Positions 7,466-49,982 of a DNA stretch of 64,000 bases are shown piece after piece. Source of the stretch: Candidatus Levybacteria bacterium GW2011_GWA1_37_16. GTDB taxonomy: Bacteria; Patescibacteriota; Microgenomatia; Levybacterales; UBA12049. Position 1 is the stretch's first letter, and each line of letters opens with the position of its first letter. The DNA is taken from NCBI GenBank assembly GCA_943357985.1, contig CALRGR010000003.1, positions 6,496-70,495 on the forward strand. Reading direction: 5' to 3'. The notes under the pieces were generated by a model. That model saw only the letters and a list, made by a program, of their open reading frames with translations. It had not been told where the DNA came from and did not search any database. A program made the translations under genes and the position numbers.

Positions 7466-7489
7466 TAAGGAGAGCTTGCTCTCGAAACT

Positions 7490-36744: not shown

Positions 36745-37173
36745 TTAAAACGCAACCACGGGTTTATCAAACCTAAAATCCAGAGTCTTAAATCTCTTAC
36801 CCTCTATTGTAAGCCTAGAAAGTATAATTTGTAAAGAGCGCACCTGTGAAGAAATATCCTTTCCAGGAGAGATAACCACAATCCCTCCATCTTCAAGACT
36901 TACCATATATGAGGAATCAGTTGCCACTTCAATCTTTGATACGTTAATTTTTTCCTTTGCCAAAAGGCCTTTAATGTCCAAATCTTGACTTTTGACTCCT
37001 TTTGGAAGAGGACTAACTAAAGGATTTTTGAAAACATAAGGGGAAAAGAATATAAATACAGCCGTTAAAACAAGAGAAGATCCCAAAAGAACGAATATAA
37101 TTCCTAAGTATCTAAAATATTTTCTACTTTTTCTATTTTTTCTTTCGTGCAACATCTTCAACAACAGAGACAA
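36745..37173 (-). CDS. ftsQ: FtsQ/DivIB-like cell division protein (short; TM helix plus POTRA-like domain)
   Basis: N-terminal TM helix and a position between murG and ftsA. Confidence 0.5.
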   Translation of the reverse strand: MSLLLKMLHERKNRKSRKYFRYLGIIFVLLGSSLVLTAVFIFFSPYVFKNPLVSPLPKGVKSQDLDIKGLLAKEKINVSKIEVATDSSYMVSLEDGGIVVISPGKDISSQVRSLQIILSRLTIEGKRFKTLDFRFDKPVVAF

Positions 37174-38236
37174 TATGCGCTGCCGCTTTCTTTTCTATTA
37201 AATTTTCAGATTCAGGGCTTAGTCTGTATTTATCGATACTACTCATCATATAGTCTATTTTTGAGATAAAATTCTCAACAGACAACTCATCTTGCTCCAT
37301 TATCTCGCCCAGACCCAGTTCTTTTATAAAAAAAGCATTCTGATGTTGCTCTCCTTTTGCTGCAATAGGTAATGGAATCAAAAAGCACGGCTTTTTAAGA
37401 AAAATTAGCTCCGTTACAGTATTCATTCCCGCTCTGCCTACAACAAGTGTTGCTTTTTGAAGAACTATCCCTGCTTCTTTGCTTTCAATAAATTTTTCAA
37501 TCCTATATTTTTTTGCCAAATCCGCAGGTAGGGTTTTTTTTAGCTCCTGTAGTCTTTCAAAATCATTAAACTTTTTAGAATCTCCTGTTTGATGGATTAC
37601 GGAATATCTACCGAGCAATTTTTCAACCGATCTCTCAATTAAACTGTTTATGAAATGAGAACCCGTACTTCCTCCTGTTATGTAGATAATGGACTCGTCC
37701 GGTTTTTTGTCAGTATTTGCCGCCTCAATAATTTCTTTTCTCACAGGATTTCCTGTAACTATCACATTTTTGCCTGGAAAAAAGTCCTTGGAGCTATTCC
37801 AGGAAACGCAGATCATCTTGGCCCACATTGCAATTATTTTGTTGGAAACTCCAACTTGCAATGTCTGCTCATGAATGACAACCGGAATTTTCAAAAAATA
37901 TGCAGCAAGAGAAACAGGCAAAGATACATATCCACCAAATCCTAAAACCACATCCGGTCTTATTTTTCTAAGAATTGTTATGGATTTGCCAAAACCATAA
38001 GGAAGCTTTATTAATGAAGGGATTGTGCGGATCGTAAATTTCCTTTGAAACCTGCCACTTGGAAGATCTATGAATGGGATATTTAAAGATTTTATTGTTT
38101 GATATTCCAAAGTCGGGGACTTATCTCCCTCAAATGAAGATTTTCTGCCTATAAAGAAAACTTGTGAATCTTGCGGTAAAGCCTCTATCACACATTGAGC
38201 CGGAGAAAAATGACCACCTGTTATTACAAGTCTCAT
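37133..38236 (-). CDS. murG: Undecaprenyldiphospho-muramoylpentapeptide beta-N-acetylglucosaminyltransferase
   Basis: N-terminus MRLVITGGHFSPAQ, a GT-B fold, and GGS-G motifs. Confidence 0.85.
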   Translation of the reverse strand: MRLVITGGHFSPAQCVIEALPQDSQVFFIGRKSSFEGDKSPTLEYQTIKSLNIPFIDLPSGRFQRKFTIRTIPSLIKLPYGFGKSITILRKIRPDVVLGFGGYVSLPVSLAAYFLKIPVVIHEQTLQVGVSNKIIAMWAKMICVSWNSSKDFFPGKNVIVTGNPVRKEIIEAANTDKKPDESIIYITGGSTGSHFINSLIERSVEKLLGRYSVIHQTGDSKKFNDFERLQELKKTLPADLAKKYRIEKFIESKEAGIVLQKATLVVGRAGMNTVTELIFLKKPCFLIPLPIAAKGEQHQNAFFIKELGLGEIMEQDELSVENFISKIDYMMSSIDKYRLSPESENLIEKKAAAHIVSVVEDVARKKK

Positions 38237-38252
38237 ACTATGATTCTAGCAC

Positions 38253-39323
38253 CTAACTGTGGCTTTGTCTTGATATGTTTAATAAAATGCCAATAGCACA
38301 CAACTCTATGATAAGAGCCGAGCCTCCGTAAGATATGAAAGGAAGAGGAATTCCCGTAAGAGGAAGAAGCATGGTCTGCGCGCCAAGATTTATTATCATC
38401 TGGATTGCCAAAAAAGTTGTAATTCCTGCTGCTAAAAGCCTTCCAAAATTATCCGGCGCACGACTAGCAATTCTAAATCCTCTCCAAACAACGACTGCAA
38501 AAATACAAATAAGAATTGTTGCTCCAACAAATCCAAGCTCCTCCGCAATTATTGCAAATATAGAATCCGTTGTATTTTCCGGAAGATATGCATATTTTTG
38601 TAAAGAGTTTCCAAGACCCAAACCAAAAACTCCGCCATTTCCAAGTGAGATTAAAATCTGCTTTACGTGATAGGAAGAATTTTGAACATCTTGATTAGGA
38701 TTTAAGAAGGTTACCAACCTTTCAGCTCTATAAGGAGATGTTTTTATAAGTATTAGCCCCAAAGCTCCCAAAACAGGAATTAAAGAAAGAAGATAAAGCA
38801 TATTTCCTCCTGATAGAAAATATATCGCCATGGCTTCCCCCATTATTACAATTGCAGTTCCCATATCCGGCTGCATCATAATAAGTGCGACCAAAAGACC
38901 CATTAGAAGCACAAACGGGACAAATCTTCCCTTTTCTTTTCTTGAAAACCAAGCAGCCAAATATATAGCTAAAGATAGCTTTACAAATTCAGTCGGTTGC
39001 AGTAAGAATACTTTTAGATCAATCCATCGGCTTGCTCCAAGCAAATGAACACCAATCCCGGGTATAAAAACCATAATAAGAAGTACAATTGAAGTTATCA
39101 TCAAAGGTAATGAAAGATTATAAAATCTGTGATAGTCAAAAAATGAGAAAAACGTTAGAGCCCCAAATCCCAAAATGGCCCATAAAAACTGTCCTTTTAA
39201 ATAGTGATATTTATCCGCAAAATCTCTAAATGCAACAAAAGAAGATGCGTCATAAATCATAAGGAGACCAAAGAAAGTAAGAAATATGATGGAGAGTATT
39301 AAAGTAATGTCCAAACGCTTCAT
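38253..39323 (-). CDS. ftsW: SEDS-family peptidoglycan glycosyltransferase, likely FtsW
   Basis: Ten TM helices, PFISYGGS motif, and position between mraY and murG. Confidence 0.75.
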   Translation of the reverse strand: MKRLDITLILSIIFLTFFGLLMIYDASSFVAFRDFADKYHYLKGQFLWAILGFGALTFFSFFDYHRFYNLSLPLMITSIVLLIMVFIPGIGVHLLGASRWIDLKVFLLQPTEFVKLSLAIYLAAWFSRKEKGRFVPFVLLMGLLVALIMMQPDMGTAIVIMGEAMAIYFLSGGNMLYLLSLIPVLGALGLILIKTSPYRAERLVTFLNPNQDVQNSSYHVKQILISLGNGGVFGLGLGNSLQKYAYLPENTTDSIFAIIAEELGFVGATILICIFAVVVWRGFRIASRAPDNFGRLLAAGITTFLAIQMIINLGAQTMLLPLTGIPLPFISYGGSALIIELCAIGILLNISRQSHS

Positions 39324-39327
39324 GAGG

Positions 39328-40335
39328 TCATTTTATAAGAGCTATGTAAAGACCCATTATGGCAAATAAAAATCCCAAAAGCCAGGATCGCATGACAATC
39401 TTTGGCTCTTCCCAACCTCGTTTCTGAAGATAAAGATGAAGCGGTGCAACCGGAAAAATTTTTCGTCCTAGATATCTCTTTCCAAGAAGCTGAATTAAAG
39501 AAGAACCAACTTCTAAAATAAGAACTCCTCCAATAAATCCAATTGCTATTATTTTTCCTGTTAAAAGACCTATAACGGCAATGCTTGCTCCCAATGCAAG
39601 AGAACCTACATCCCCGAGCCAAATTCTTGCAGGATAAATATTAAAGTACAAAAATGCAGCAACGCTTCCCATAAGAATGGCTATAAAAATTCCGAGTGAT
39701 TTATCATATTGATTTGCGGAAATTGTTAAAAAAGCACCAAGCGCAATAAGCAGAAGACCACTTGCCTGTCCATCAAGACCGTCGGCAATATTAAAAGCGT
39801 TTGCAAAAGAAACAATAATAAAAGCGGCAAGAGGAATAAAGAAAATGCCAATAACTGCAAGCCCAAAGCCTTTTATAAAAATAAAATCATACCCAAGCTG
39901 GGAATAAAGAATAAAGGCAATAATAAAAGCCAAAATCCATTGAATCGCAAATTTATACCTAAATCTAAGACCAAAGAATCCTTCTTTTTTGTCGCTTAGT
40001 TTTTTAAAATCATCATATAAACCAAGAGCGCCAAAGCCTAAAAGAGTAAAGAGAACTACAAATATCTGCCAAAGATTAAAATCCACGTTTAAAAGACCGT
40101 AAGCCCAAAGAGTAAGTATAGAAACAACAATTATTATAAGAATTCCGCCTCCAAACGGAGTGCCTGTTTTCCAAGCATTAAATTTATCAAAATAGGGAGT
40201 TGGTTTATTAAAGAGGTCGCGGGTAACTTGCTTCTGACGCCTTAATTTTATTTTATATAAAAAATCAATAAACGGAATAAGCAAAATACCGGTTATAAAA
40301 GCAGACAAAAGTGTAAGTCCCAAAAATTGCGCCAT
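39328..40335 (-). CDS. mraY: Phospho-N-acetylmuramoyl-pentapeptide transferase
   Basis: Motifs NAFNIADGLDG and WLGDVGSLALG, with ten TM helices. Confidence 0.9.
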   Translation of the reverse strand: MAQFLGLTLLSAFITGILLIPFIDFLYKIKLRRQKQVTRDLFNKPTPYFDKFNAWKTGTPFGGGILIIIVVSILTLWAYGLLNVDFNLWQIFVVLFTLLGFGALGLYDDFKKLSDKKEGFFGLRFRYKFAIQWILAFIIAFILYSQLGYDFIFIKGFGLAVIGIFFIPLAAFIIVSFANAFNIADGLDGQASGLLLIALGAFLTISANQYDKSLGIFIAILMGSVAAFLYFNIYPARIWLGDVGSLALGASIAVIGLLTGKIIAIGFIGGVLILEVGSSLIQLLGKRYLGRKIFPVAPLHLYLQKRGWEEPKIVMRSWLLGFLFAIMGLYIALIK

Positions 40336-40498
40336 AAAAGGGTATTATACTCCTAAAGATGAGACTGCAGCAAGCTTACTTCTGCTTTTTTTGTTTCTTT
40401 TTCTCTTTCTTGGGTTTGGAAAACCTTTCAGCCATGTATTTATTTAATACCAATTTTGTCCTTATTGCAACAACCAAATTTATGCTATTATAGTTTCT

Positions 40499-41035
40499 AT
40501 GGAAGAGAAATGTCCAAAATGCGGTTCGGCCTTGTCTCCTATTACGGAGACAGCAACAGGCCGCAAGCTTCAAAGGTGCTCTAAGGGCTCTTGGAATCCC
40601 GAAACAAAACAGAATGAAGGCTGTGACTATGTATTATGGATTCAGGCAGAAGATGAAAAGCTAGATGAAAAATGCCCCAAGTGCGGAAATCCACTGGTCA
40701 TGGCGCAAACACGCTTTGGAAAGAAAATGAAAAAGTGTTCAACCAATGTCTGGAATAAAGATACAAAAAAAGCAGAGGGCTGTGACTTTATAGAATGGAT
40801 TAACGGCACAACAAAAGAACTTGATGAAGATTGTCCAGAATGCGGAAAGAAGCTTGTTCTTTATACAACCTCAACAGGAAAAAAGATGAAAAAGTGTTCA
40901 ACCAGTGGCTGGGACAGGGAAAAAAAGGTTACAACGGGCTGCACATATGTCCAATGGCTTAAACCAAGTGAGTATCAATCAAAAGACGAACCAAACGGAG
41001 AAGAGTTTTTACCCCCTGAATCCCAAGCAAACTAG
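40499..41035 (+). CDS. Stand-alone protein built from three tandem topoisomerase-type C4 zinc-ribbon modules
   Basis: Three ~58-aa repeats. Each carries CP(K/E)CG, about 15 intervening residues, then KC and GC (e.g. EKCPKCGNPLVMAQTRFGKKMKKCSTNVWNKDTKKAEGCDFIEW). This resembles the C-terminal zinc ribbons of topoisomerase I and YrdD-type proteins. Confidence 0.55.
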   Translation: MEEKCPKCGSALSPITETATGRKLQRCSKGSWNPETKQNEGCDYVLWIQAEDEKLDEKCPKCGNPLVMAQTRFGKKMKKCSTNVWNKDTKKAEGCDFIEWINGTTKELDEDCPECGKKLVLYTTSTGKKMKKCSTSGWDREKKVTTGCTYVQWLKPSEYQSKDEPNGEEFLPPESQAN

Positions 41036-41730
41036 AAAGGGATGTCTGAAGTTGTTGACTCGATACTTTCAAAGGATTTTCTATAAATGCAAAGCCTGCA
41101 CGTTTCAGACGGTTTTGGCAAATCACCATTTAGAACTTTAGAAATCTCATTAACGAATTTTAAAAATCCATCCATATCTTCCTCTATTGGATGCCATTTA
41201 GGAGATGTAGTAAATACAAATTTTCCGTCTTTATGCTCAATTGCGTCCGGTGAAACGCTAACTAGTCCGATTCTTGAAACTTTAATAGGCTTACCTTCTG
41301 CGGGATTTTCCAAAGCATATTTATAAGCATGCAGTTGACTTGAAAACTTTTTGATTTGCTCTTCATCTGGCTTTGTTATTTTAAAATCTATAACCGAGTA
41401 TGTACCATCTGCAAGTTTAGTTAAAACATCAAAACGTCCACTTATATAACAGTCTTCTGAGCCTTTTATTGGCTGGGATTTTAAAAACCCTTCCTGAATT
41501 TCAATTATTCCCTCTGGCAAATCCGGATGAATATCTTTTAAGCTTTTTCCCATAACAGAATTTTGTAAAAGACTATTCATGTGAGTAAAAATTGCAGGGA
41601 AAGCGCCGGAATGAGGAGGAATACCAAGTTTTACTTTTTGATAGAAACAAAACTTACAATCCTCCCAAAGATACTTGAAGTCGGAAGGGGATAATTTATA
41701 TTGCTTCTGTGCTTGCTCCATGAAAACCAA
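41032..41730 (-). CDS. Cas4/RecB-like PD-(D/E)XK nuclease with flanking Cys pairs
   Basis: Motif II GRFDVL, motif III IDFKITK (D-x-K), and a QLHAYKYAL (Q-x3-Y) motif. Cys pairs lie at the N-terminus (CKFC) and C-terminus (CRLC). No CRISPR array is present. Confidence 0.6.
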   Translation of the reverse strand: MVFMEQAQKQYKLSPSDFKYLWEDCKFCFYQKVKLGIPPHSGAFPAIFTHMNSLLQNSVMGKSLKDIHPDLPEGIIEIQEGFLKSQPIKGSEDCYISGRFDVLTKLADGTYSVIDFKITKPDEEQIKKFSSQLHAYKYALENPAEGKPIKVSRIGLVSVSPDAIEHKDGKFVFTTSPKWHPIEEDMDGFLKFVNEISKVLNGDLPKPSETCRLCIYRKSFESIESTTSDIPF

Positions 41731-41749
41731 TTATACCACTACTCTATCT

Positions 41750-42880
41750 CTAAAGGGGCGGCTCAAGTTCTAGGGTTTTAATTTCCGGGAGTGACTTACC
41801 TATTATTCCCTGCAAATCTCCATACATTCCATGAGTACTGTCTAAAACTTTTCTTATTTCTTTTTCCTGCCTTGCCCATTTGGAATTAAACCATCTTTTT
41901 TCTCTTTCTAATTCGTCCTGCAAATTTCCAAAACCCTCAACAACTGCCTCAACCCTATGCTTAAATTCAGTACCCGTTAAGTATTTATACAGAACCTCCA
42001 TCTTTTCATTCTTTCCCTCTCCATTTGACCTTTCATGATTTAGACTTACCAAGTTATACCGCAAAGAAAGCGCAAGTGGAACTACAAACTTCCATGTAGT
42101 TATCCAAACTCCATCTTTGTAAGTAAAAGAATCTAAGAATTCCGGCTTATTTATTGTGACAAGGATTGCCAAATCTGACTTTTTAGCTCTTTGATCTTCT
42201 TTTAATTTTGCAATCCAGCCATTTTGCCACTGAGCATTTTTAGATTCCCAAAGAATTGTCCCGCAACTTCTTCCCAATTTATCTGTCACTTCATGAACAA
42301 TATCCGCTCCCCTTTCCCCTTTTTTAACTTCAAGAATATTATCCTGTGGAAATTCACTTTTTAGAATTCTTTCGAGTTCTAACTCCATTACTTCTCCTTG
42401 TGTTTGCTGAGAGCCTTGTTCCATTTTGGTTTTAAGCTCTTCAAGTTGTTTTAGGGTATCTGTAAGTTTTTTGTCCTTTTCCAAATCTTTGAATTGATGT
42501 TCATCTTCCGACTGCTTTCTGACTTCTTTTCTAATCTTCTCCTCCTCATCCATTATTTTTTGCTTCATTTCCAATTCCCTCTCTTCATCTTTGCGTCTTA
42601 AGGCTCTCATTTCTTCAAGAAGTTTGTCTAATTTTTCCGTGAGGCTTTTATTTCTATCTTTTTCTTCTGTGTTTTCTTTTTTTAAAGTTTCGAGGGATTG
42701 CTCAAATTCTTTTCCGACTTTCTTTTTAGCGACTTCTTCTGCTGCCAATTTTGTATCTTCGAGTTCTTTTTTGTGCTTTATTTCCAGCGTGAGCAAAACT
42801 TGTTCTTCTATCTGATGAGTTAAAGCTTCCGATACTTCAATTTCTGCCCCACACTTTTTACACTTTATAACATTATTCAT
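41750..42880 (-). CDS. DUF2130/RmuC-like protein: N-terminal CxxC knuckle, long charged coiled coil, C-terminal PD-(D/E)XK-like nuclease domain
   Basis: N-terminal MNNVIKCKKCGAEIEV, then a ~200-aa E/K-rich coiled coil. The C-terminal region carries GERGADIV and ILWESKN (E-x-K) motifs. It is 19 bp upstream of, and co-oriented with, the Cas4-like gene. Confidence 0.5.
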   Translation of the reverse strand: MNNVIKCKKCGAEIEVSEALTHQIEEQVLLTLEIKHKKELEDTKLAAEEVAKKKVGKEFEQSLETLKKENTEEKDRNKSLTEKLDKLLEEMRALRRKDEERELEMKQKIMDEEEKIRKEVRKQSEDEHQFKDLEKDKKLTDTLKQLEELKTKMEQGSQQTQGEVMELELERILKSEFPQDNILEVKKGERGADIVHEVTDKLGRSCGTILWESKNAQWQNGWIAKLKEDQRAKKSDLAILVTINKPEFLDSFTYKDGVWITTWKFVVPLALSLRYNLVSLNHERSNGEGKNEKMEVLYKYLTGTEFKHRVEAVVEGFGNLQDELEREKRWFNSKWARQEKEIRKVLDSTHGMYGDLQGIIGKSLPEIKTLELEPPL

Positions 42881-42896
42881 CTTGAAAGTTAATTAT

Positions 42897-42925
42897 AGCA
42901 CGGGGACTTGGCGGGGTTTTTATTT
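42897..42925 (+). repeat. Direct repeat copy 1 (GCACGGGGACTTGGCGGGGTTTTTATTTT)
   Basis: Near-identical to a copy at 43234-43261. The consensus is GGGGAYTTGGCGRGGTTTTT, preceded in both copies by ATTATA(G/T)CACG. Together they flank a gene remnant. Confidence 0.4.
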
Positions 42926-43023
42926 TAAGAAGCGTTTTGGAAAAGCGTACTATACAAAAGTGCATCTTCTGCAGCTTCTGGTTTATTTTCTTTTCTAATG
43001 TTTTGAATCTTACTAAGCTATTT

Positions 43024-43200
43024 AATTAAATAAGGTTTTAATTCTTTATTGTCTATTTCAGCTCTTCTCTTTAAAGCTTCTAAAAATCTTTCTGTTATAA
43101 CATCAGAGCCTCTATAATAACCCAATGCTACTCGTTTTAAATCAAGAGCGATAGCGCCTAAAACAGCTTTATTTTTATCTGATTTTGTAATTATCCTCTG
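43024..43200 (-). pseudogene. Start-less C-terminal gene remnant (about 59 codons; ...AVLGAIALDLKRVALGYYRGSDVITERFLEALKRRAEIDNKELKPYLIK*)
   Basis: Open frame with no ATG/GTG/TTG start, and an in-frame stop immediately upstream. It lies between the two direct repeats. Confidence 0.25.
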
Positions 43201-43233
43201 ACTTTCAAAATATTATATCACGATATTTATTTC

Positions 43234-43261
43234 CTGGGGATTTGGCGAGGTTTTTGCTTTT
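43234..43261 (+). repeat. Direct repeat copy 2 (CTGGGGATTTGGCGAGGTTTTTGCTTTT)
   Basis: Pairs with the copy at 42897-42925. It lies just upstream of a putative TTGACA-17-TATTAT promoter for the 43306 gene. Confidence 0.4.
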
Positions 43262-43305
43262 ATAAATTTGACAATAAATAAGCAAATGACTATTATAGGT
43301 CACCT

Positions 43306-43755
43306 ATGATACACGAAGCCCCCAAAAGAACATCAGAGCAAATTGCTGCGGGTTTAGTTGCTCAAGCACTAACAGCTCAACAAGAAGGCCTAGAAAAGGA
43401 AATTCCTGTATATCTAAAAGTTTCTATAGACTCACCCTCACTCGCTGCCAGATTTAAAGTCCCTGATATTTCAGGCAATCCTATATTGGGAGACATGCTC
43501 GATAGATTGTTAGTTGTAAATGACGATTTCTCAGTGTCATACGTGACTGGTTTTAATTCTTACGATGGCCATAAATATGAGCACTGGATAACTCCTTCCA
43601 AAAGATATCCAGGATTATTTACTATTACTGAATTCGCGATGAAAGGTAGACAAAGAGTAGCCGAAAGAGTTGGTATTTTAGTCAGCGGGACTAATTTAAT
43701 AGAATTTCAAAATTGGTCACATTTTTTCTACAACGTTATTCAGAAGGAAGCCTAA
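43306..43755 (+). CDS. Hypothetical protein (149 aa, soluble, no recognisable motifs)
   Basis: ORF with a plausible upstream promoter. It is the last gene of the accessory segment before glmS. Confidence 0.4.
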   Translation: MIHEAPKRTSEQIAAGLVAQALTAQQEGLEKEIPVYLKVSIDSPSLAARFKVPDISGNPILGDMLDRLLVVNDDFSVSYVTGFNSYDGHKYEHWITPSKRYPGLFTITEFAMKGRQRVAERVGILVSGTNLIEFQNWSHFFYNVIQKEA

Positions 43756-43758
43756 GTT

Positions 43759-45522
43759 TTATTTCACAGTAACGCTTTTGGCGAGGTTACGGGGCTTGTC
43801 CGGATCTAAATTAAGGTCGACTGCCATATAGTAAGCAAGTAGCTGAATTGCAACAATTTGCGCAATATAAGATGCTTCCTTTATATCTTTTACTTGCAAG
43901 AAATAATCAAACACAGGCTGATTTTTGTCTGCAATTCCAATTATTATTCCCCCTCTACTTTTAATTTCAATTGCGTTTGAAATTATTGACTCAAAGCTAT
44001 CATCATTTGGGGCAAATACAATAACAGGCGTGCCTTTGGAAATAAGAGCAATTGTCCCGTGTTTTAATTCCCCACCTGCCAGGCCTTCTGTTGGCACATA
44101 GCTTACTTCTTTTATCTTCAAAGCTGCCTCTAGTGCCGATGGATAAGAAACTCCTCTGCCGATTACATAGATATTTGACGCAATCGAAAGAAACTTTGCA
44201 ACTTGCTTGATTTGGGCCGAGTTTTTTTTCTCAAGTATTCGATCAATCTCATCTGCAGCCAGAAGCAATAGCTTTTTCGCGTCCGCAGTTTTTTCTACCA
44301 TTGCAAAAACTAACATTAGAAGAACGGAAAGTTTTGCAATGTATGCTTTTGTTGATGCAACTGCTTTTTCAGGTCCTGCGTTTAGAAGAATTTTAAAGTC
44401 TGCCATTCTGTAAATTGAAGATCCTAAAACATTTGTTATGGCAACAATCTTACTTCCTCTTACCTTTGCCCTATTTAATGGCTCTATAACATCAATAGTC
44501 TCTCCTGACTGAGACAGAGCAATAACTAAGCTTTCTTTATTTAGAAAATGTTCAAGGTAATTAAACTCGGATGCAACCGCGGTATTAACATGCGTTTCTG
44601 CAATTTTTGAAAAAAGGTATGTGCCAGTTAATCCTGCATGAAAAGCAGTTCCGGCTCCAATAAAGTATGTTCCTCTGGCTTTTTTTATAAGTTTTGAAAG
44701 AGCATTTATTTCATCTTCATAGTTTTCTGCAATATTTCTTATAACTAGCGGCTGCTCATAAATTTCTTTTATCATAAAATGAGGAAATTTACCCATACTT
44801 GATAGTTCAAATTTCCAAGTTACAGTTTCTGGCACAACTTCAAGCTGCTTACCAGAGGGGACCGAAATTAGCTCTATATCCTTACCTAAAATAACCATTT
44901 CATAATCTTTTAGGAAAATTACTTTTTTTGTTTTTTCTATAAAACTTGAAATATCGGAGGCCAGATAAAATTCGTCCTTTCCAAGACCTACAACCAAAGG
45001 AGAACCGTTTTTGACAGCTATAATTTCGCTTGAAGGAGCATATGCAATAACAATTGCATTAAGTCCTTTTAATTTATTGAAAGATTTTCTAACTGAAGTT
45101 GCAAATCCGCTGCTGCCCTTAAGATTTTCTTCAATAAGATGAGGAATAACTTCCGTATCGGTTTCTGAGACAAACTTATGTCCTTTTTTGATAAGTTCTT
45201 CTTTAAGCTGTTCGAAGTTTTCAACAATACCGTTGTGAACTACTGCAATTTCCTTGCGGCAATCAAGATGAGGATGTGAATTTGCAACAGTTACGCCACC
45301 GTGAGTTGCCCAGCGGGTATGACCAATTGCTAAATTGCTTTTTGGCAAATTCACACTTGCCCCTCCAATTTTACCAACGTGTTTATCAACTGCAAGATTT
45401 TTGCCTTTTTTAACTGCAATTCCCCAAGAATCGTATCCTCTATATTCAAGAATTTTTAAACCTTCGAACGCTATATTAGCAGCGTCATTTTTATTACCGA
45501 TATAAGCAAATATTCCACACAT
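43759..45522 (-). CDS. glmS: Glutamine--fructose-6-phosphate aminotransferase
   Basis: N-terminal nucleophile MCGIFAYIG, two SIS domains, and the C-terminal ...VK. Confidence 0.95.
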   Translation of the reverse strand: MCGIFAYIGNKNDAANIAFEGLKILEYRGYDSWGIAVKKGKNLAVDKHVGKIGGASVNLPKSNLAIGHTRWATHGGVTVANSHPHLDCRKEIAVVHNGIVENFEQLKEELIKKGHKFVSETDTEVIPHLIEENLKGSSGFATSVRKSFNKLKGLNAIVIAYAPSSEIIAVKNGSPLVVGLGKDEFYLASDISSFIEKTKKVIFLKDYEMVILGKDIELISVPSGKQLEVVPETVTWKFELSSMGKFPHFMIKEIYEQPLVIRNIAENYEDEINALSKLIKKARGTYFIGAGTAFHAGLTGTYLFSKIAETHVNTAVASEFNYLEHFLNKESLVIALSQSGETIDVIEPLNRAKVRGSKIVAITNVLGSSIYRMADFKILLNAGPEKAVASTKAYIAKLSVLLMLVFAMVEKTADAKKLLLLAADEIDRILEKKNSAQIKQVAKFLSIASNIYVIGRGVSYPSALEAALKIKEVSYVPTEGLAGGELKHGTIALISKGTPVIVFAPNDDSFESIISNAIEIKSRGGIIIGIADKNQPVFDYFLQVKDIKEASYIAQIVAIQLLAYYMAVDLNLDPDKPRNLAKSVTVK

Positions 45523-45523
45523 A

Positions 45524-45991
45524 TTATTCCTTTACTAAATCGACCAACTTGTTAAGATTTTTAATCACTGCGTCTGCCTGGTAGTCCGTTGGCTCGTCTC
45601 CTTTCCAAATTCTTTTTTCTCTATCTATAAAAACCGTAAAAACTGCAGGCGAATGTTTTTTAACCTTTTCAAGAATAGATGACCTGTCATCAACCAAGAA
45701 AATTTGATGGTCTTTATATTTCTCTATTACCTGAGGAATTGGCGTAGTTTTTTCCAGGAAGATATGAATGTCTTCCTCGTTGAAGTTTTTCAATATATCA
45801 GTCTTGAGAAGTTTATTTCGCTGAAGCTCTATGTTTCCTTCTGAAAATATTCCAAGAGTCGCATAGGTCGCTATTTCCACCAAAACTCCAACAACTTCTT
45901 CATACAAAGTGTGCTTTGTAAGATCGCTTTCTTTAAAAAGGTCTGTGTCAAACAAAGTGTAGTCAATGTCAAAGAGAACTATTTTTTTCAT
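45524..45991 (-). CDS. HAD-superfamily hydrolase (small)
   Basis: Motif I LFDIDYTLFD (DxDxT) and a downstream Asp-rich motif IV (FLVDD). Confidence 0.6.
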   Translation of the reverse strand: MKKIVLFDIDYTLFDTDLFKESDLTKHTLYEEVVGVLVEIATYATLGIFSEGNIELQRNKLLKTDILKNFNEEDIHIFLEKTTPIPQVIEKYKDHQIFLVDDRSSILEKVKKHSPAVFTVFIDREKRIWKGDEPTDYQADAVIKNLNKLVDLVKE

Positions 45992-46001
45992 AATTTGTAG
46001 A

Positions 46002-47258
46002 TTATTTCTTCTCTATAATCTCCTGAAATTTCGCGTAGTAAGTAACATCATCTTCAATGTTTTTAAAAACACTGGTAGACGGACCAATTGTGACGTTATT
46101 ACCAATTATGACACCAGGCATTATAGAAACTTTTATTCCAATTTTTACATTGTTTCCAATTATCGCGCCCAGGCTGATAAGGCCAGTGTCTACTTTTGAA
46201 CCTTTTACTACTGCCTGAATATTTTTCCTGTCTATTTTTCTGTTTGCGGTTGTAAAGGCAGAACCAATTTTACAACTTGAACCAACAATTGAATCTCCTA
46301 CAAATCCTGAATGAATGCTCGTCCCTTTCATAAAAAGGCTGTTTTTAATTTCTGTAAACGCTCCAACCGATACTCCCTCTTCTAAATCTGACTCATTTCT
46401 AATAAGAGAATTTGTTCCAATATATACATCTTTACCAATGTAAGCTGGTCCCTTAATTTTTGCTCCTTCAAGGATTTGCGCTCCGCTTTCAATAATTACA
46501 TTATCATCAATCTCAGCGCTCTTTGAAATTTTTGCGCTTTCGTCTATCCTTCCCACAATATCTTTCATCAGTAAATTTTTTGTTGCAAGCAAATCCCAAG
46601 GGTACTTTAAAGTTGATGTTTCAAATTCTATCTGTCCAACATCAATTGAATTTTCCTTTACGTAAAGCTCAAGTACCTCTTGTTCAAAATTAAATTCGGA
46701 CATTTTTACTTGTCTTACCGTCTCAATAATATCCGTTGATAATAAAAATGCATTAACTAAACACAGATCCGATGGTTCCTCTCCCTTCTTAGGCTTTTCA
46801 ACTATGCGTACGAGCTTTCCGTCTTTAACAACAACTACTCCATAATCCCAAGGATTTTCTCTTTTATTTACAAGGATTACGCCCTTGGACCCACCTTTTC
46901 GAGCTTTTAACAATTCGTAAACAAGTTTTTTACTGGTAACGTGATTTCCACCAATGAGAATAAAATCGCCATCGAGGAATTTCTCTGCATTAAGAAGAAC
47001 CTCTCCCATTCCCAATGCTTCTTTTTGCTCAATGTAGTTTATGAAGAGGCCGGAGGCCGAACCATCACCAAAATAATTCTTAATTACTCCGTCTTCGCTT
47101 ACTCTTAAAATTATGTCTTTTATTCCTGCTTCTTTTAATCCCTCAAGCGTATATTCAAGAATTGGCTTTCCCATAATTTTACTCATGGTTTTATGAGCCA
47201 CTCTTGAGTATGGATAAAATCTGCTTGAATAACCGCCTGCTAAAACAACTGCTTTCAT
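46002..47258 (-). CDS. glmU: Sugar-1-phosphate nucleotidyltransferase fused to a left-handed beta-helix acetyltransferase (GlmU-like)
   Basis: Nucleotidyltransferase motif MKAVVLAGGYSSRF and C-terminal hexapeptide repeats (IGNNVKIGIKVSIMPGVIIGNNVTIG). Start set at MKAVVLAGG to avoid overlap with murA. Confidence 0.65.
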   Translation of the reverse strand: MKAVVLAGGYSSRFYPYSRVAHKTMSKIMGKPILEYTLEGLKEAGIKDIILRVSEDGVIKNYFGDGSASGLFINYIEQKEALGMGEVLLNAEKFLDGDFILIGGNHVTSKKLVYELLKARKGGSKGVILVNKRENPWDYGVVVVKDGKLVRIVEKPKKGEEPSDLCLVNAFLLSTDIIETVRQVKMSEFNFEQEVLELYVKENSIDVGQIEFETSTLKYPWDLLATKNLLMKDIVGRIDESAKISKSAEIDDNVIIESGAQILEGAKIKGPAYIGKDVYIGTNSLIRNESDLEEGVSVGAFTEIKNSLFMKGTSIHSGFVGDSIVGSSCKIGSAFTTANRKIDRKNIQAVVKGSKVDTGLISLGAIIGNNVKIGIKVSIMPGVIIGNNVTIGPSTSVFKNIEDDVTYYAKFQEIIEKK

Positions 47259-47259
47259 A

Positions 47260-48588
47260 TTATTCTTTAATCCTTTTAATATCTGCTCCCAAACTCTTAA
47301 GTCTTTTTTCAAAATTTTCATAACCGCGGTCCAAATGTTCAACCCCAAAAACTACACTTTCGCCCTTTGCAGAAAGTGCAGCCAAAACTAAAGTTGCGCC
47401 TGCTCTTAAATCTGATATTTCTACAACCGCATTATGAAGATTTGTGGGTCCCGTAATTTTAGCAGCATGCTTAAACTCCGCTTTATTGTCAGAAAGGTTA
47501 AAATTGTAAACTTCTTGTGGATTTTTAACTTCTGGATTAAAAAGCTCTATCTTTGCTCCCATTTTTAAAAGCTGATTAACATAGTTAAATCTACTTTCAT
47601 AAACTGTTTCATGAATTACTGACTCTCCTCTGGCTTTAGTCATAAGAACTGCCCATGGACCCTGCCAGTCAGTCATGAAGCCGGGATAAAAAGATGTTGT
47701 AGCATCTGTTGCCTTAAGATCATCCTTATAGAAAAATCTTAAATCTTTTCCTTTTTCCTCAAATTGTCCTCCAGCCTGCTTGAATTTTTCTAAAAATTCT
47801 ACAAGCTCCTGTTTCTTTACGTCTTTTACCGTTATATCTCCCTCTGTTATAATCGCCGCAATTGCAAAGGTGACTATTTCATTTCTGTCAGGCGCGATTG
47901 AAAATCTTGTACCATGAAGTTTTTCTACACCTTCAACTACAATTTTTCTTTTGGAAATTCTTTTAACTCTTGCTCCCATTCTATTTAGAAATTCAATTAA
48001 TTCATCAACTTCCGGTTCCTGCGCTGCATTATCTAAAACCGTCTTTCCTTTTGCCAAAACTGCTGCCATAAGAAGAGTCTCAGTGCCCGTGTGCGTGTTT
48101 TTCTCGAATCTATAAGCGGCCCCCTTAAGCCCGTTGCTTGCTTTAATATGAAAGAATCCATCTTTACTGTTATATGTTGCGTTAACTCCCATTTTTTTAA
48201 GACCTAAAATAGTTCTGTCAATTGGCCTGGCTCCAATTCTGCAACCTCCTGGGTTTGGAATTATCGCGCTATTTGTACGTGCTAAAAGCGGAGCAACAAA
48301 CATAGCGGAAGTTCTTACTTCCGCAGCAGCTTGCAACGCAATTTTTTCCTTTTTGAATTCTTCCATTTGAATATAAGCGGTATGATCTTGAATTCTCACC
48401 TTTCCACCCAACTCTTTAACGATATCTATCATTACCTGAAAATCCGAAATGTGAGGAATATTATCAATAATGACTTCTTCTGCTGTAAGACATGATGCCA
48501 CCACAACTTTAAGAGCCACATTTTTGGCACCTGAGATAACTACGCTTCCTTTAAGTTTTTTTCCGCCTTTTATAACAAATTTGTCCAT
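47260..48588 (-). CDS. murA: UDP-N-acetylglucosamine 1-carboxyvinyltransferase
   Basis: N-terminus MDKFVIKGGKKLKGSVVISGAKNVALK and the active-site Cys region (GGCRIG). Confidence 0.9.
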   Translation of the reverse strand: MDKFVIKGGKKLKGSVVISGAKNVALKVVVASCLTAEEVIIDNIPHISDFQVMIDIVKELGGKVRIQDHTAYIQMEEFKKEKIALQAAAEVRTSAMFVAPLLARTNSAIIPNPGGCRIGARPIDRTILGLKKMGVNATYNSKDGFFHIKASNGLKGAAYRFEKNTHTGTETLLMAAVLAKGKTVLDNAAQEPEVDELIEFLNRMGARVKRISKRKIVVEGVEKLHGTRFSIAPDRNEIVTFAIAAIITEGDITVKDVKKQELVEFLEKFKQAGGQFEEKGKDLRFFYKDDLKATDATTSFYPGFMTDWQGPWAVLMTKARGESVIHETVYESRFNYVNQLLKMGAKIELFNPEVKNPQEVYNFNLSDNKAEFKHAAKITGPTNLHNAVVEISDLRAGATLVLAALSAKGESVVFGVEHLDRGYENFEKRLKSLGADIKRIKE

Positions 48589-49982
48589 ATTTTATAAATA
48601 TCTCCAGCACCCATTGTTACAACAATAGTACCCTTATCGTATCCCTTTTTAGATAGATATTCTATCACATTGGCAAGCGTAGGCAAAAATACAACATCCC
48701 CATGAACTTTAGCCACTTCGGAAGCCAGAAGCGCAGATGAAACAGTTAGGTCAGCCTCTTCTCTAAGCGAAGCGTATATATTTGTTAGTATAATAGTATT
48801 TGCGTCCGCAAATGAGGTTTTAAACTGTTCGAACAATGATTTTGTTCTAGAATACGTATGCGGCTGAAAAATACAGACAATTCTCTGTTTTGGAAATGTT
48901 TTTTTGAACGCTCTGAGAGTTTTTTTAATTTCTGTTGGATGATGTGCATAATCATCAAAAGCCATTGCGCCGCTTGGTAATTTCCCCACAAACTCAAATC
49001 TTCTTTTGCTTCCGCTATATTTTGAGATACCCAACTTTATTTTTTCTATTGATATCCCAAGCTCGGCAGCTACGACAATGGCAGCTAACGCATTTACAGC
49101 ATTGTGTTCTCCCGGCACGCCAACAGAAAATTCCCCAAAATTCATTTCTCTTCCATTTACCCAAAAGAATGTTTTCTCGCCTGAAATACTAATTCTCTCA
49201 AGATGAAAATCATTCTTTGAAGAAAGACCGAATGTAACAACTCTGCCTTTGTATTCTTTTAGAAAAATTGACACTTGCTCATCGTCTCCATTTGCTATTA
49301 AGACTCCGTTTGAAGGCAAACTGTTTGCAAATTTAGCAAAAACCCCCCTCATATCATCTATTGCAGAGTAAACATCCGGATGATCAAACTCTATATTTGT
49401 AAAAACTGCAATTCTTGGATGCTGCCATAAAAACTTTACAGTTTTATCATATTTTGGATCTGTTATATACTCATCTGCTTCTGCCACAAAATATTTTCCA
49501 CGACCAAAATGCCCCGAGCTACCCAAGGATGGAATATTTCCTGTTCCAATAACATATGTTGGATCAAGTCCTACTTCTTTTATAATTGTTGCAATCATAG
49601 CCGTTGTAGTGGTCTTACCATGCGCACCTGCAACAGATATGCCTTCGAATCGCTTGTCGATAACCGAGCCTTCCATAAATGCGCCGACTGCTTCTCCCTG
49701 CATTAATACCTTAATTCCATTTGAAAGCGCAGCTTTTACCTCAACGTTATCTCTCCCACCGTGTGCTCCACTTGCAATAACCAAATCAACATCTGCAACA
49801 TGCTCACTATCAAAACCTTCAAACACGGCTATATCTGCTTTTTTTAAACCCTCATCTGTTATAAACTCTTCGGCAATGTCGGAACCGGTTACCTTAATTC
49901 CAGCTTCCTTAGCAATAATCGCAAGAGGTGCAGTTCCAACTCCTTTTATTCCAACAAAATGTATTGATTTTATTTTCTTCAT
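48570..49982 (-). CDS. murC: UDP-N-acetylmuramate--L-alanine ligase
   Basis: N-terminal IHFVGIKGVGTAPLAIIAKEAG (MurC-type Rossmann) and the P-loop GAHGKTTTTAM. Confidence 0.85.
   Translation of the reverse strand: MKKIKSIHFVGIKGVGTAPLAIIAKEAGIKVTGSDIAEEFITDEGLKKADIAVFEGFDSEHVADVDLVIASGAHGGRDNVEVKAALSNGIKVLMQGEAVGAFMEGSVIDKRFEGISVAGAHGKTTTTAMIATIIKEVGLDPTYVIGTGNIPSLGSSGHFGRGKYFVAEADEYITDPKYDKTVKFLWQHPRIAVFTNIEFDHPDVYSAIDDMRGVFAKFANSLPSNGVLIANGDDEQVSIFLKEYKGRVVTFGLSSKNDFHLERISISGEKTFFWVNGREMNFGEFSVGVPGEHNAVNALAAIVVAAELGISIEKIKLGISKYSGSKRRFEFVGKLPSGAMAFDDYAHHPTEIKKTLRAFKKTFPKQRIVCIFQPHTYSRTKSLFEQFKTSFADANTIILTNIYASLREEADLTVSSALLASEVAKVHGDVVFLPTLANVIEYLSKKGYDKGTIVVTMGAGDIYKIWTNLL

What the first reader, a model, noticed from the sequence alone, without database searches (positions are those of the whole stretch)
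41750..42880. DUF2130/RmuC-like coiled-coil nuclease with N-terminal CxxC knuckle as a partner of the Cas4-like nuclease
The architecture is zinc knuckle, then a ~200-aa E/K/R-rich coiled coil, then a C-terminal domain with GERGADIV…ILWESKN (D…E-x-K). This resembles RmuC and SMC-like nuclease effectors found in defence systems such as Lamassu. Pairing with a second Fe-S-type nuclease 19 bp downstream suggests a two-component sensing/effector system.
Basis: partly seen in the sequence, partly recalled or inferred. Interest (0 to 1): 0.65.

Follow-up and report, generated by a model that had tools for sequence, protein, structure and literature searches.

The report
DUF2130 nuclease with loosely linked Cas4-like neighbour
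The gene encodes a member of DUF2130, a catalogued but untested family of restriction-enzyme-like DNA nucleases on a long helical stalk, and its pairing with the neighbouring Cas4-like nuclease recurs only in a few close relatives, so it is not a fixed two-part system.

Summary
The ORF at 41750-42880 (-) is real. It matches Pfam DUF2130 at E=9e-58. All described features check out: an N-terminal CxxC hairpin, a 139-residue charged helix, and an invariant D193...E212-x-K214 motif on an alpha-beta-beta-beta-alpha-beta core. Fold searches return almost only restriction-endonuclease-like proteins.

It is not an RmuC member and not SMC/Lamassu-like. The only resemblance is general architecture.

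The Cas4-like neighbour is an intact RecB/Cas4-type PD-(D/E)XK nuclease with a 2+2 cysteine cluster. Its orthologue lies next to a DUF2130 gene in two other lineages, once collinear (L103) and once in reversed order (L142), and 2.3 kb away in a third (L106). It is absent around 80 of 80 species-level DUF2130 loci. DUF2130 is absent from 79 of 80 Cas4-like loci.

Homology to other close relatives stops exactly at the ORF ends. Those relatives sit in other settings: type IIG RM + OLD-like ATPase + DUF2130 cassettes, large helicase-nucleases, Top1-type zinc-ribbon genes, or RNase HII.

Verdict: an autonomous nuclease of a known but uncharacterised family, with a facultative, lineage-restricted link to the Cas4-like gene. 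Its biological role, DNA conflict or DNA repair, is unresolved.

The parts
41750..42880 (-). DUF2130-family protein gene, 376 aa, including the stop codon
   Evidence: ORF listed. Pfam PF09903 E=9.4e-58. An identical protein is on public contigs.
42836..42871 (-). N-terminal CxxC beta-hairpin (residues 4-15; C7 and C10), read as half of a zinc site
   Evidence: Hairpin in the AF2 model. C7 and C10 are invariant. CxxC is present in 76/79 orthologues and in the Bacteroidota and Alphaproteobacteria plasmid copies, while H22 is not universal.
42419..42835 (-). 139-residue charged amphipathic helix (residues 16-154), a probable coiled-coil stalk
   Evidence: A single helix in the AF2 model. It is 53% D/E/K/R with no proline. 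Heptad periodicity is modest, profile p about 0.02, strongest at 58-99. The N-terminal extension varies from 0 to 450 aa across the family.
42095..42418 (-). PD-(D/E)XK nuclease core (residues 155-262). It includes the invariant QGSQQTQGE motif, D193 (42302-42304), E212 (42245-42247) and K214 (42239-42241).
   Evidence: Invariant columns. Alpha-beta-beta-beta-alpha-beta order in both models. Foldseek hits are restriction endonucleases, Hjc, McrC, Mrr-type and VRR-NUC proteins.
41753..42094 (-). Conserved C-terminal helical region (residues 263-376), including the long helix 304-363
   Evidence: AF2 models. Many invariant residues: W335, E339, R343, G354. It lies inside the Pfam DUF2130 envelope.
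42892..42900 (-). Extended -10-like box TGCTATAAT, 11 nt before the DUF2130 ATG
   Evidence: Pattern search: 9 matches in the window against 3.4 expected. Sequence read. This is a consensus match only.
41032..41721 (-). Neighbouring Cas4/RecB-like PD-(D/E)XK nuclease gene (229 aa from ATG 41721). A facultative neighbour, not a fixed partner.
   Evidence: PDDEXK_1 E=4.5e-9, above its cut-off. Cas4 TIGR00372 scores 29 bits, below its cut-off of 65. D98, D112-x-K114, Q129..Y133 and C22/C25/C208/C211 are conserved in 120 homologues.
41730..41738 (-). Extended -10-like box TGGTATAAT in the 28-nt spacer, 8 nt before the Cas4-like ATG
   Evidence: No terminator-like site lies between the two genes. 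Inference: the gene could be transcribed on its own as well as by read-through.
40499..41035 (+). Protein with three Top1-type C4 zinc ribbons (178 aa). It is convergent with the Cas4-like gene and overlaps it by 4 nt. It is a recurrent neighbour of DUF2130 in related genomes.
   Evidence: Zn_ribbon_Top1 E=8e-10. Orthologues at 60-79% identity are adjacent to DUF2130 in L008, L189, L190 and L191, and nearby in L015, L035 and L106.

Best explanation
The gene encodes an autonomous, cytoplasmic nuclease of the DUF2130 family (PF09903 / COG4487). Shown: a restriction-endonuclease-like PD-(D/E)XK core with an intact D193 / E212-x-K214 site lies at the C-terminal end of a ~140-residue charged helix. 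That helix starts with a family-wide CxxC hairpin. Inferred: the protein cleaves DNA with a divalent metal. It probably works as a parallel dimer held by the amphipathic stalk. The two CxxC half-sites would together bind one zinc at the tip, much as the Rad50 hook does. The gene behaves as a single-gene module. Homology to several close relatives ends exactly at the ORF boundaries, and those copies sit in unrelated settings. The Cas4-like gene downstream belongs to a separate, conserved Microgenomates nuclease family that is usually found without DUF2130. The adjacency is a lineage-restricted, facultative linkage that is probably co-transcribed, not an obligate sensor/effector pair. My estimates for the biological role are: about 45% a DNA-conflict (restriction-like, anti-mobile-DNA) nuclease, about 35% a repair/recombination nuclease, and the rest other.
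For: Family membership and motifs. Fold: AF2 models. Foldseek against PDB returns MspJI, BstEII, Hjc, HindIII, McrC, Bax1, EndoMS, EcoRI and BamHI. Foldseek against BFVD reaches E=1.6e-7, and the named hits are Mrr-type or restriction endonucleases, resolvases, and VRR-NUC or RecB-like proteins. CxxC occurs in 76/79 orthologues and in distant plasmid copies, whereas the histidine is not conserved. Modularity: blastn homology to L081, L101 and L104 runs only from 42883 to 41760. Pair statistics: 0/80 species-level DUF2130 loci carry the orthologous Cas4-like gene, and 1/80 Cas4-like loci carry DUF2130. The closest Cas4-like relative (84% identity) sits beside Mur ligases without DUF2130. The pair is adjacent in L103 (collinear through the spacer) and in L142 (reversed order). 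Conflict-type settings of 65-80%-identical copies: type IIG RM -> OLD-like AAA_15 ATPase -> DUF2130 in L081, L187 and L004; an HTH_17 gene plus a helicase-REase or a DrmD-like gene in L101 and L103; PDC-S46 in L075; PDC-S37/Hhe-like in L051. In plasmids, DUF2130 lies directly before GajA/GajB and before type I hsdM/hsdS.
Against: No biochemistry exists for any DUF2130 protein. The Foldseek-PDB E-values are weak (0.006 and above). Heptad periodicity is marginal, so the stalk could be a single charged helix rather than a coiled coil. A matched control found no excess of RM, OLD or helicase genes around species-level DUF2130 loci: 6/80 loci in 853 kb, against 7/80 Cas4-like loci in 562 kb. Most neighbours are housekeeping genes. 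Identity of 60-80% across several Microgenomates classes, together with repair-type neighbours (RNase HII, RecO, UvrD-PDDEXK, beta-CASP), fits a housekeeping role. Tight spacing of 8-28 nt in three lineages, with two gene orders, leaves room for real cooperation with the Cas4-like nuclease.
Confidence: 0.6

Rival explanations
1. DUF2130 and the Cas4-like nuclease form a dedicated two-component defence system, one part sensing and the other executing. They would be co-transcribed and act as a complex.
For: The pair is tightly spaced: 28 nt in the window, 8 nt in L103 and about 9 nt in L142. It recurs with different flanks and in both gene orders. In L103 it sits between a DrmD-like SNF2 gene and an HsdM fragment. 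Non-orthologous PDDEXK_1 genes also lie next to or near DUF2130 in L004, L189, L190, L003 and L006.
Against: The orthologous partner is absent from 80/80 species-level DUF2130 loci, and DUF2130 is absent from 79/80 Cas4-like loci. Identities are discordant: the L103 DUF2130 is 80% identical but its Cas4-like gene only 56%, while the 84%-identical Cas4-like gene has no DUF2130 beside it. The Cas4-like gene has its own extended -10 box. Neither protein matches a PADLOC system model beyond generic Cas4. The window carries no other defence gene.
Confidence: 0.12
2. DUF2130 is a housekeeping DNA repair/recombination nuclease of Patescibacteria, for example processing ends, flaps or branched DNA. 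It would work loosely with a Top1-type zinc-ribbon ssDNA-binding protein and with RecB/Cas4-type nucleases. The defence-island copies would be incidental.
For: Identity is 60-80% across Woese-, Davies-, Roizman- and Gottesmanbacteria, with one copy per locus. RNase HII lies immediately downstream, often overlapping the stop codon, in 10-11 loci. Zinc-ribbon orthologues are adjacent in L008, L189, L190 and L191 and close by in the window, L106, L015 and L035. Other neighbours include RecO (2 loci), UvrD-PDDEXK_1 (2), beta-CASP (2-3), adenine glycosylase, GIY-YIG and RecJ. There is no defence enrichment in the matched control.
Against: The RNase HII link is confined to one clade with shared synteny (holin-like, CofD and SecG genes), so it may reflect a single event. 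ORF-precise relocation and the cassettes with RM, OLD-like ATPase, Gabija and type I RM are unusual for a core repair gene. The family is patchy outside the CPR, and some copies are plasmid-borne.
Confidence: 0.3
3. The protein is an RmuC or SMC/Lamassu-type protein, that is, a divergent member of those families.
For: It has the same general layout as RmuC, a helical N-terminal part followed by a PD-(D/E)XK domain. There is a weak PADLOC LmuB hit, E=4.6e-4.
Against: No PF02646 hit for this protein and no PF09903 hit for E. coli RmuC, even at E<=10. hhalign probability is 0.18. The LmuB hit scores 17 bits, lies in the helical arm only, and there is no P-loop or ATPase head. The N-terminus has no membrane anchor (read directly from the sequence).
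Confidence: 0.03

Closest known systems
DUF2130 (Pfam PF09903, COG4487), listed among PD-(D/E)XK phosphodiesterases by Steczkiewicz et al. 2012 (PMC3424549)
   Same: A full-length match far above the curated cut-off. The domain is C-terminal. The D...ExK motif and the N-terminal CxxC are as in other members.
   Different: Nothing separates it from the family. It is simply a Microgenomates member. The family itself has no tested function.
RmuC, and ShdA of the Shield anti-phage system (PMC10270631)
   Same: A helical N-terminal region followed by a restriction-endonuclease-like nuclease domain. ShdA shows that such a protein can defend on its own through non-specific DNA cleavage.
   Different: No detectable sequence relationship. 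RmuC and ShdA are membrane-anchored, whereas this protein has a CxxC hairpin and no hydrophobic N-terminus.
Rad50/SbcC zinc hook (established knowledge, used here only as an analogy)
   Same: A lone CxxC at the far end of a long helical arm, distant from the catalytic head. Two such half-sites could share one zinc.
   Different: Rad50 has an ABC ATPase head and an antiparallel intramolecular coiled coil with the hook at its apex. Here the CxxC is at the extreme N-terminus of a single helix, and the head is a PD-(D/E)XK nuclease. Zinc binding is untested.
Solo Cas4 / RecB-family PD-(D/E)XK nucleases (PDDEXK_1), for the neighbouring gene
   Same: PDDEXK_1 scores above its cut-off. The D, D-x-K and Q..Y motifs and four conserved cysteines are present.
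   Different: It scores below the TIGR00372 Cas4 cut-off (29 against 65 bits). No CRISPR genes lie nearby. The cysteines are arranged CxxC...CxxC, not 1+3.
ATPase-plus-nuclease defence pairs of the OLD/ABC-ATPase kind: Gabija GajA/GajB, PARIS AriA/AriB, Septu PtuA/PtuB. These are relevant to relatives of this gene, not to the window copy.
   Same: In L004, L081 and L187 an OLD-like AAA_15/AAA_21 ATPase lies directly before a 65-77%-identical DUF2130 gene and after a type IIG RM gene. On an Aliarcobacter plasmid, DUF2130 directly precedes bona fide GajA/GajB.
   Different: The window has no such ATPase anywhere in its 64 kb. DUF2130 is not a component of any PADLOC v2 model.

Membership tests
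DUF2130 (PF09903) | Match to the family HMM above the curated gathering score | tested here: met
   195.9 bits against a cut-off of 26.7, E=9.4e-58, profile positions 6-253 of 255.
DUF2130 (PF09903) | The domain lies at the C-terminus behind a variable helical N-terminal extension | tested here: met
   In the 150 best representatives the match always ends at the C-terminus, and the N-terminal part spans 0-450 aa. Here it is residues 133-373 of 376.
DUF2130 (PF09903) | Conserved N-terminal CxxC | tested here: met
   C7 and C10 are invariant in 76 homologues. The motif is present in 76/79 orthologues and in the Chryseobacterium and Mesorhizobium copies.
PD-(D/E)XK (restriction-endonuclease-like) superfamily | An alpha-beta-beta-beta-alpha-beta core, with D before strand 2 and (D/E)xK on strand 3 | tested here: met
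   AF2 gives alpha158-176, beta181-184, beta194-199, beta205-214, alpha221-232 and beta237-242. D193 precedes strand 2 and E212-S-K214 ends strand 3. All three residues are invariant.
PD-(D/E)XK (restriction-endonuclease-like) superfamily | Structural similarity to solved or annotated members | tested here: met
PD-(D/E)XK (restriction-endonuclease-like) superfamily | Metal-dependent phosphodiester cleavage | not testable with these tools
   This needs purified protein and active-site mutants.
RmuC (PF02646) | Match to the RmuC HMM or profile | tested here: not met
   No PF02646 hit at E<=10 for the C-terminal domain. E. coli RmuC hits PF02646 at 3e-109 but does not hit PF09903. hhalign of A2 against RmuC gives probability 0.18.
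RmuC (PF02646) | N-terminal membrane anchor, as in ShdA and E. coli RmuC | tested here: not met
   The N-terminus reads MNNVIKCKKCGAEIEV, followed by a 53%-charged helix with no hydrophobic segment. No dedicated transmembrane predictor was run.
SMC-like / Lamassu LmuB | ABC/SMC ATPase head with a Walker A motif | tested here: not met
   The only hit is 17 bits (E=4.6e-4) to LmuB positions 319-481, which is the arm. There are no SMC_N or AAA hits in Pfam. No GxxxxGK[ST] motif is visible in the sequence.
Cas4 (TIGR00372), for the neighbour gene | Equivalog-level HMM score and the 1+3 cysteine cluster | tested here: not met
   29.1 bits against a cut-off of 65. The conserved cysteines are C22, C25, C208 and C211, a 2+2 arrangement. 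The gene is a PDDEXK_1 member (37 bits against 22) rather than a bona fide Cas4.
Conserved two-gene (DUF2130 + Cas4-like) system | The two genes co-occur as neighbours across lineages | tested here: not met
   0/80 DUF2130 species-level loci and 1/80 Cas4-like loci show the pair. It is adjacent only in the window lineage, L103 and L142, and 2.3 kb apart in L106.

The most novel reading that the evidence does not exclude
DUF2130 proteins may be a so far unrecognised class of stalked DNA nucleases with a zinc-hook-like tip, serving as interchangeable effectors in anti-mobile-DNA modules. Examples would be the terminal gene of the type IIG RM / OLD-like ATPase / DUF2130 cassettes and the add-on to Gabija and type I RM loci. 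In the window's lineage the same module would have been re-wired to a Cas4-like nuclease and a Top1-type zinc-ribbon DNA binder, forming a small three-gene DNA-surveillance unit.
Probability: 0.2. Interest if true: 0.65.

Novelty: new member of a known kind. Interest (0 to 1): 0.35.

Why it matters
On its own, the window gene is an ordinary member of a catalogued family. The family, however, is large: about 4,200 clusters at 50% identity. It is catalytically intact and completely uncharacterised, and it has an unusual build, with a lone CxxC at the tip of a 20-nm-scale helix. If the recurrent cassettes with OLD-like ATPases, Gabija and RM systems reflect function, DUF2130 would add a new effector type to bacterial immunity. 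It would also offer a tractable case of a hook-like zinc staple outside Rad50. If it is instead a repair nuclease, it would fill a gap in the sparse DNA-repair repertoire of Patescibacteria.

Tried and rejected

2. A sequence search of the PDB with the family profile gave only coiled-coil noise.

3. RmuC kinship was tested with hhalign against a single E. coli RmuC sequence and with permissive Pfam scans. Both were negative. A deep RmuC profile was not built.

4. A defence-island reading for the whole family was tested with a matched control, using external RM, OLD and helicase queries on DUF2130 loci versus Cas4-like loci. There was no enrichment. I therefore did not file the gene as a defence gene.

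5. I first concluded that the pair never recurs, based on the 80 species-level loci. Look-ups of the closest relatives and the reciprocal metagenome scan corrected this to 'rare and lineage-restricted'.

6. An 18-nt direct repeat upstream was considered as a possible insertion scar or att site. It does not flank the gene and occurs only in the window's own contigs, so it was left unexplained.

7. I looked for a remnant of the HTH_17 gene that precedes the closest relatives. No similar frame exists in 42881-43305.

8. Phage carriage is negligible: 7 prophage-like records and 6 IMG/VR contigs.
Full report
THE OBSERVATION

The ORF at 41750-42880 on the minus strand is real (376 aa, ATG start). 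Pfam assigns residues 133-373 to DUF2130 (PF09903) with E=9.4e-58, far above the curated cut-off. NCBIfam has no model for it. PADLOC gives only a 17-bit match to the helical arm of LmuB.

- C7-K-K-C10 at the N-terminus.
- GERGADIV at residues 188-195.
- ILWESKN at residues 209-215.

In an alignment of 76 homologues at 60-80% identity, the invariant residues are C7, C10, the QGSQQTQGE motif, E163, E166, D193, E212 and K214.

AlphaFold2 models were built for the full length (pLDDT 80.7) and the C-terminal domain (pLDDT 84.4). They give a beta-hairpin at 4-15, one uninterrupted helix at 16-154, and then a core in the order alpha-beta-beta-beta-alpha-beta. D193 sits just before strand 2 and E212-x-K214 ends strand 3. 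A conserved helical C-terminus follows.

Foldseek against solved structures gives weak E-values (0.006 and above). The hits are almost exclusively restriction-endonuclease-like proteins: MspJI, BstEII, Hjc, HindIII, McrC, Bax1, EndoMS, EcoRI and BamHI. Against predicted viral structures the hits reach E=1.6e-7. The named ones are Mrr-type and other restriction endonucleases, Holliday-junction resolvases, and VRR-NUC and RecB-like nucleases. So the fold assignment holds. It agrees with the 2012 catalogue of PD-(D/E)XK families, which already lists DUF2130 with unknown function (PMC3424549).

THE 'COILED COIL'

This part needs a caveat. The helix is 53% D/E/K/R and has no proline. Heptad-type hydrophobic periodicity is not significant on the single sequence (253 of 2000 shuffles reach it). 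It is only modestly significant on the family profile (45 of 2000) and clearest at residues 58-99. A dimeric coiled coil is plausible, but a partly single charged helix cannot be excluded.

THE FAMILY

A full scan of 1.84 billion cluster representatives with the C-terminal domain finds 4,192 clusters at E<=1e-3 and 1,237 at E<=1e-30. The domain always sits at the C-terminal end, behind an N-terminal extension of 0-450 residues.

The N-terminal CxxC is present in 76 of 79 Patescibacteria orthologues. It is also present in plasmid copies from Chryseobacterium and Mesorhizobium, whereas the nearby histidine is not conserved. Only two zinc ligands per chain are therefore universal. From this I infer an inter-subunit Zn(Cys)4 site at the tip of the stalk, by analogy with the Rad50 hook. 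This is untested.

Full-text searches for DUF2130, COG4487 and PF09903 find no functional study. No relative has a solved structure.

WHAT IT IS NOT

- It is not an RmuC member. The C-terminal domain does not hit PF02646 even at E<=10. E. coli RmuC does not hit PF09903. hhalign gives probability 0.18. It also lacks the membrane anchor typical of RmuC and ShdA (PMC10270631).
- It is not SMC- or LmuB-like, because it has no ATPase head.
- The resemblance to both is architectural only.

THE NEIGHBOUR

The downstream ORF most likely starts at ATG 41721, giving 229 aa and a 28-nt spacer. It is a PDDEXK_1 protein. It scores below the Cas4 equivalog cut-off.

Its family of 120 close homologues conserves D98, D112-x-K114, Q129...Y133 and four cysteines arranged CxxC...CxxC. 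It is therefore an intact RecB/Cas4-type nuclease. Whether the cluster is Fe-S or zinc is open.

DOES THE PAIR RECUR?

- From the DUF2130 side, 80 species-level genome loci (41-68% identity, nearly all Patescibacteria) contain no orthologue of the Cas4-like gene within 6 kb. One locus (L004) has a distant PDDEXK_1 gene directly downstream.
- From the Cas4-like side, 80 metagenome loci with orthologues at 55-86% identity contain DUF2130 only once (L142). There the order is reversed and the gap is about 9 nt.
- The closest Cas4-like relative (84% identity) sits beside Mur ligases without DUF2130.

Among the closest DUF2130 relatives (69-80% identity) the picture is richer:
- L103 has the same pair in the same order. 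It is collinear with the window at the DNA level from the promoter through the spacer into the Cas4-like gene, but its flanks are different.
- L106 has the Cas4-like gene, still convergent with the zinc-ribbon gene, 2.3 kb downstream of DUF2130.
- L189 and L190 have non-orthologous PDDEXK_1 genes within 0.3-2.1 kb.
- L081, L101, L104, L187 and L191 have no PDDEXK_1 gene nearby.

The identities are also discordant. The L103 DUF2130 is 80% identical to the window's protein, while its Cas4-like partner is only 56% identical.

In the window the spacer carries a perfect extended -10 box (TGGTATAAT) 8 nt before the Cas4-like ATG. A similar box lies 11 nt before the DUF2130 ATG. Such boxes are over-represented in the window, 9 against 3.4 expected. 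No terminator-like site separates the genes.

Taken together, the pair is a facultative, lineage-restricted linkage. It is probably co-transcribed where the genes abut. It is not a conserved two-component system.

WHERE ELSE THE GENE SITS

DNA homology between the window and L081, L101 and L104 begins at the start codon and ends at the stop codon. The ORF therefore relocates as a unit.

Close relatives at 65-80% identity occur in these settings:
- As the last gene of a type IIG RM -> OLD-like AAA_15/AAA_21 ATPase -> DUF2130 cassette in L081, L187 and L004. The L004 and L187 ATPases are 47% identical to each other.
- Behind a divergent HTH_17 gene, next to a 1,558-aa helicase-REase (L101) or a DrmD-like SNF2 gene (L103).
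- Next to PADLOC candidates PDC-S46 (L075, E=3e-264) and PDC-S37/Hhe-like (L051).

On plasmids, DUF2130 directly precedes bona fide GajA/GajB in Aliarcobacter and type I hsdM/hsdS in two Chryseobacterium plasmids.

Other neighbours point the opposite way:
- In one clade, RNase HII follows DUF2130 and often overlaps its stop codon, in 10-11 loci.
- RecO, UvrD-PDDEXK_1, beta-CASP, adenine glycosylase, GIY-YIG and RecJ genes appear nearby.
- Orthologues of the window's three-fold Top1-type zinc-ribbon protein are adjacent to DUF2130 in L008, L189, L190 and L191, and close by in L015, L035 and L106.

A matched control used RM, OLD and helicase queries taken from outside the test set. It found such genes in 6 of 80 DUF2130 loci (853 kb) and 7 of 80 Cas4-like loci (562 kb), so there is no general enrichment.

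The gene is rare on plasmids (46 of 72,556 records) and in viral sequences.

In the window the block lies inside a peptidoglycan-precursor cluster. The order is murA, glmU, HAD-like, glmS, orf149, then DUF2130, Cas4-like and zinc-ribbon, then mraY, ftsW and murG. No RM, OLD or helicase-type defence gene matching my external query set occurs anywhere in the 64 kb.

MECHANISM AND ROLE

Shown:
- An intact PD-(D/E)XK site on the canonical core.
- A long charged helix.
- A conserved CxxC hairpin.
- Single-gene modularity.

Inferred:
- Divalent-metal DNA cleavage.
- Dimerisation along the stalk.
- A shared zinc at the tip.
- A stalk that spaces the nuclease head or docks partners.

The biological role is unresolved. 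I put about 45% on a DNA-conflict (restriction-like or accessory defence) nuclease. I put about 35% on a repair/recombination nuclease that works with the zinc-ribbon protein and RecB-type nucleases.

NOVELTY AND SCORE

The gene is a new member of a known, uncharacterised family, and the fold assignment has been published. What may be new is the recurrent cassette with OLD-like ATPases and type IIG RM, the Gabija and type I RM adjacency, and the hook-like CxxC. These concern relatives and the family rather than the window locus, and they rest on few independent cases. Interest: 0.35.

Noticed in passing
window 42881-43305 (- strand): The 425-nt region upstream of DUF2130 holds an 18-nt direct repeat, AAACCYCGCCAARTCCCC, at 42902-42919 and 43236-43253. 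Each copy is followed by a TGnTATAAT box. Between the copies lies a 64-codon open frame (…KSDKNKAVLGAIALDLKRVALGYYRGSDVITERFLEALKRR…) that has no canonical start until late. It has no Pfam match. The repeat occurs only in the window's own contigs.
   Followed up: partly
window 8774, 26686, 41730, 42892, 43212, 47845, 50545, 53636, 54683: Extended -10 boxes (TGnTATAAT) are over-represented, 9 against 3.4 expected, with 0 of 100 shuffles reaching 9. At least four of them (26686, 41730, 42892, 53636) lie at or within about 11 nt upstream of a listed ORF start, which hints at leaderless or near-leaderless transcripts in this genome.
   Followed up: partly
window 40499-41035 (+); L008, L106, L189, L190, L191: A 178-aa protein made of three Top1-type C4 zinc ribbons is convergent with the Cas4-like gene and overlaps it by 4 nt. 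The same convergent pair is kept in L106. Its orthologues (60-79% identity) are the most consistent neighbours of DUF2130 in the window's subclade.
   Followed up: partly
L081 1-6146; L187 1-5146; L004 1721-7927: A three-gene cassette recurs in relatives 65-77% identical to the window protein: type IIG RM (N6_Mtase/Eco57I), then an OLD-like AAA_15/AAA_21 ATPase, then DUF2130. In L004 a PDDEXK_1 gene follows. In L004 and L187 the ATPase has no TOPRIM domain detected, so DUF2130 might supply the nuclease.
   Followed up: partly
L097 4413-9619 (Aliarcobacter butzleri plasmid); L089 and L100 (Chryseobacterium plasmids): DUF2130 lies 1 nt upstream of bona fide Gabija genes, GajA (E=2e-190) and GajB (E=3e-270). 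In two Chryseobacterium plasmids it lies directly upstream of type I hsdM-hsdS.
   Followed up: partly
L038, L040, L047, L049, L050, L052-L054, L056, L067 (about 7100-7800 in most): In a Levyibacteria-type clade, RNase HII follows DUF2130 on the same strand and often overlaps its stop codon. Holin-like, CofD and SecG genes are conserved upstream.
   Followed up: partly
L075 1279-3456; L051 2443-5967: Immediately upstream of DUF2130 are full-length matches to PADLOC candidate single-gene systems: PDC-S46 (E=3e-264, 2-nt gap) and PDC-S37/Hhe-like helicase-REase (E=3e-76).
   Followed up: no
L101 3765-3947; L102 348-530; L103 1011-1196: A 60-aa HTH_17/MerR-type gene, 80% identical between contigs, is divergently transcribed from the two closest DUF2130 relatives. 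This suggests a small regulator-nuclease unit that the window copy lacks.
   Followed up: no
window about 37100-48600: The DUF2130 / Cas4-like / zinc-ribbon block, together with the unannotated orf149 at 43306-43755, interrupts a peptidoglycan-precursor gene cluster. murA, glmU, a HAD-like gene (DxDxT motif) and glmS lie on one side. mraY, ftsW and murG lie on the other.
   Followed up: partly
window 41032-41721 (-): The Cas4-like family conserves four cysteines as CxxC (22, 25) and CxxC (208, 211), rather than the 1+3 'iron staple' pattern of Cas4 and AddB. The metal centre may therefore differ.
   Followed up: no
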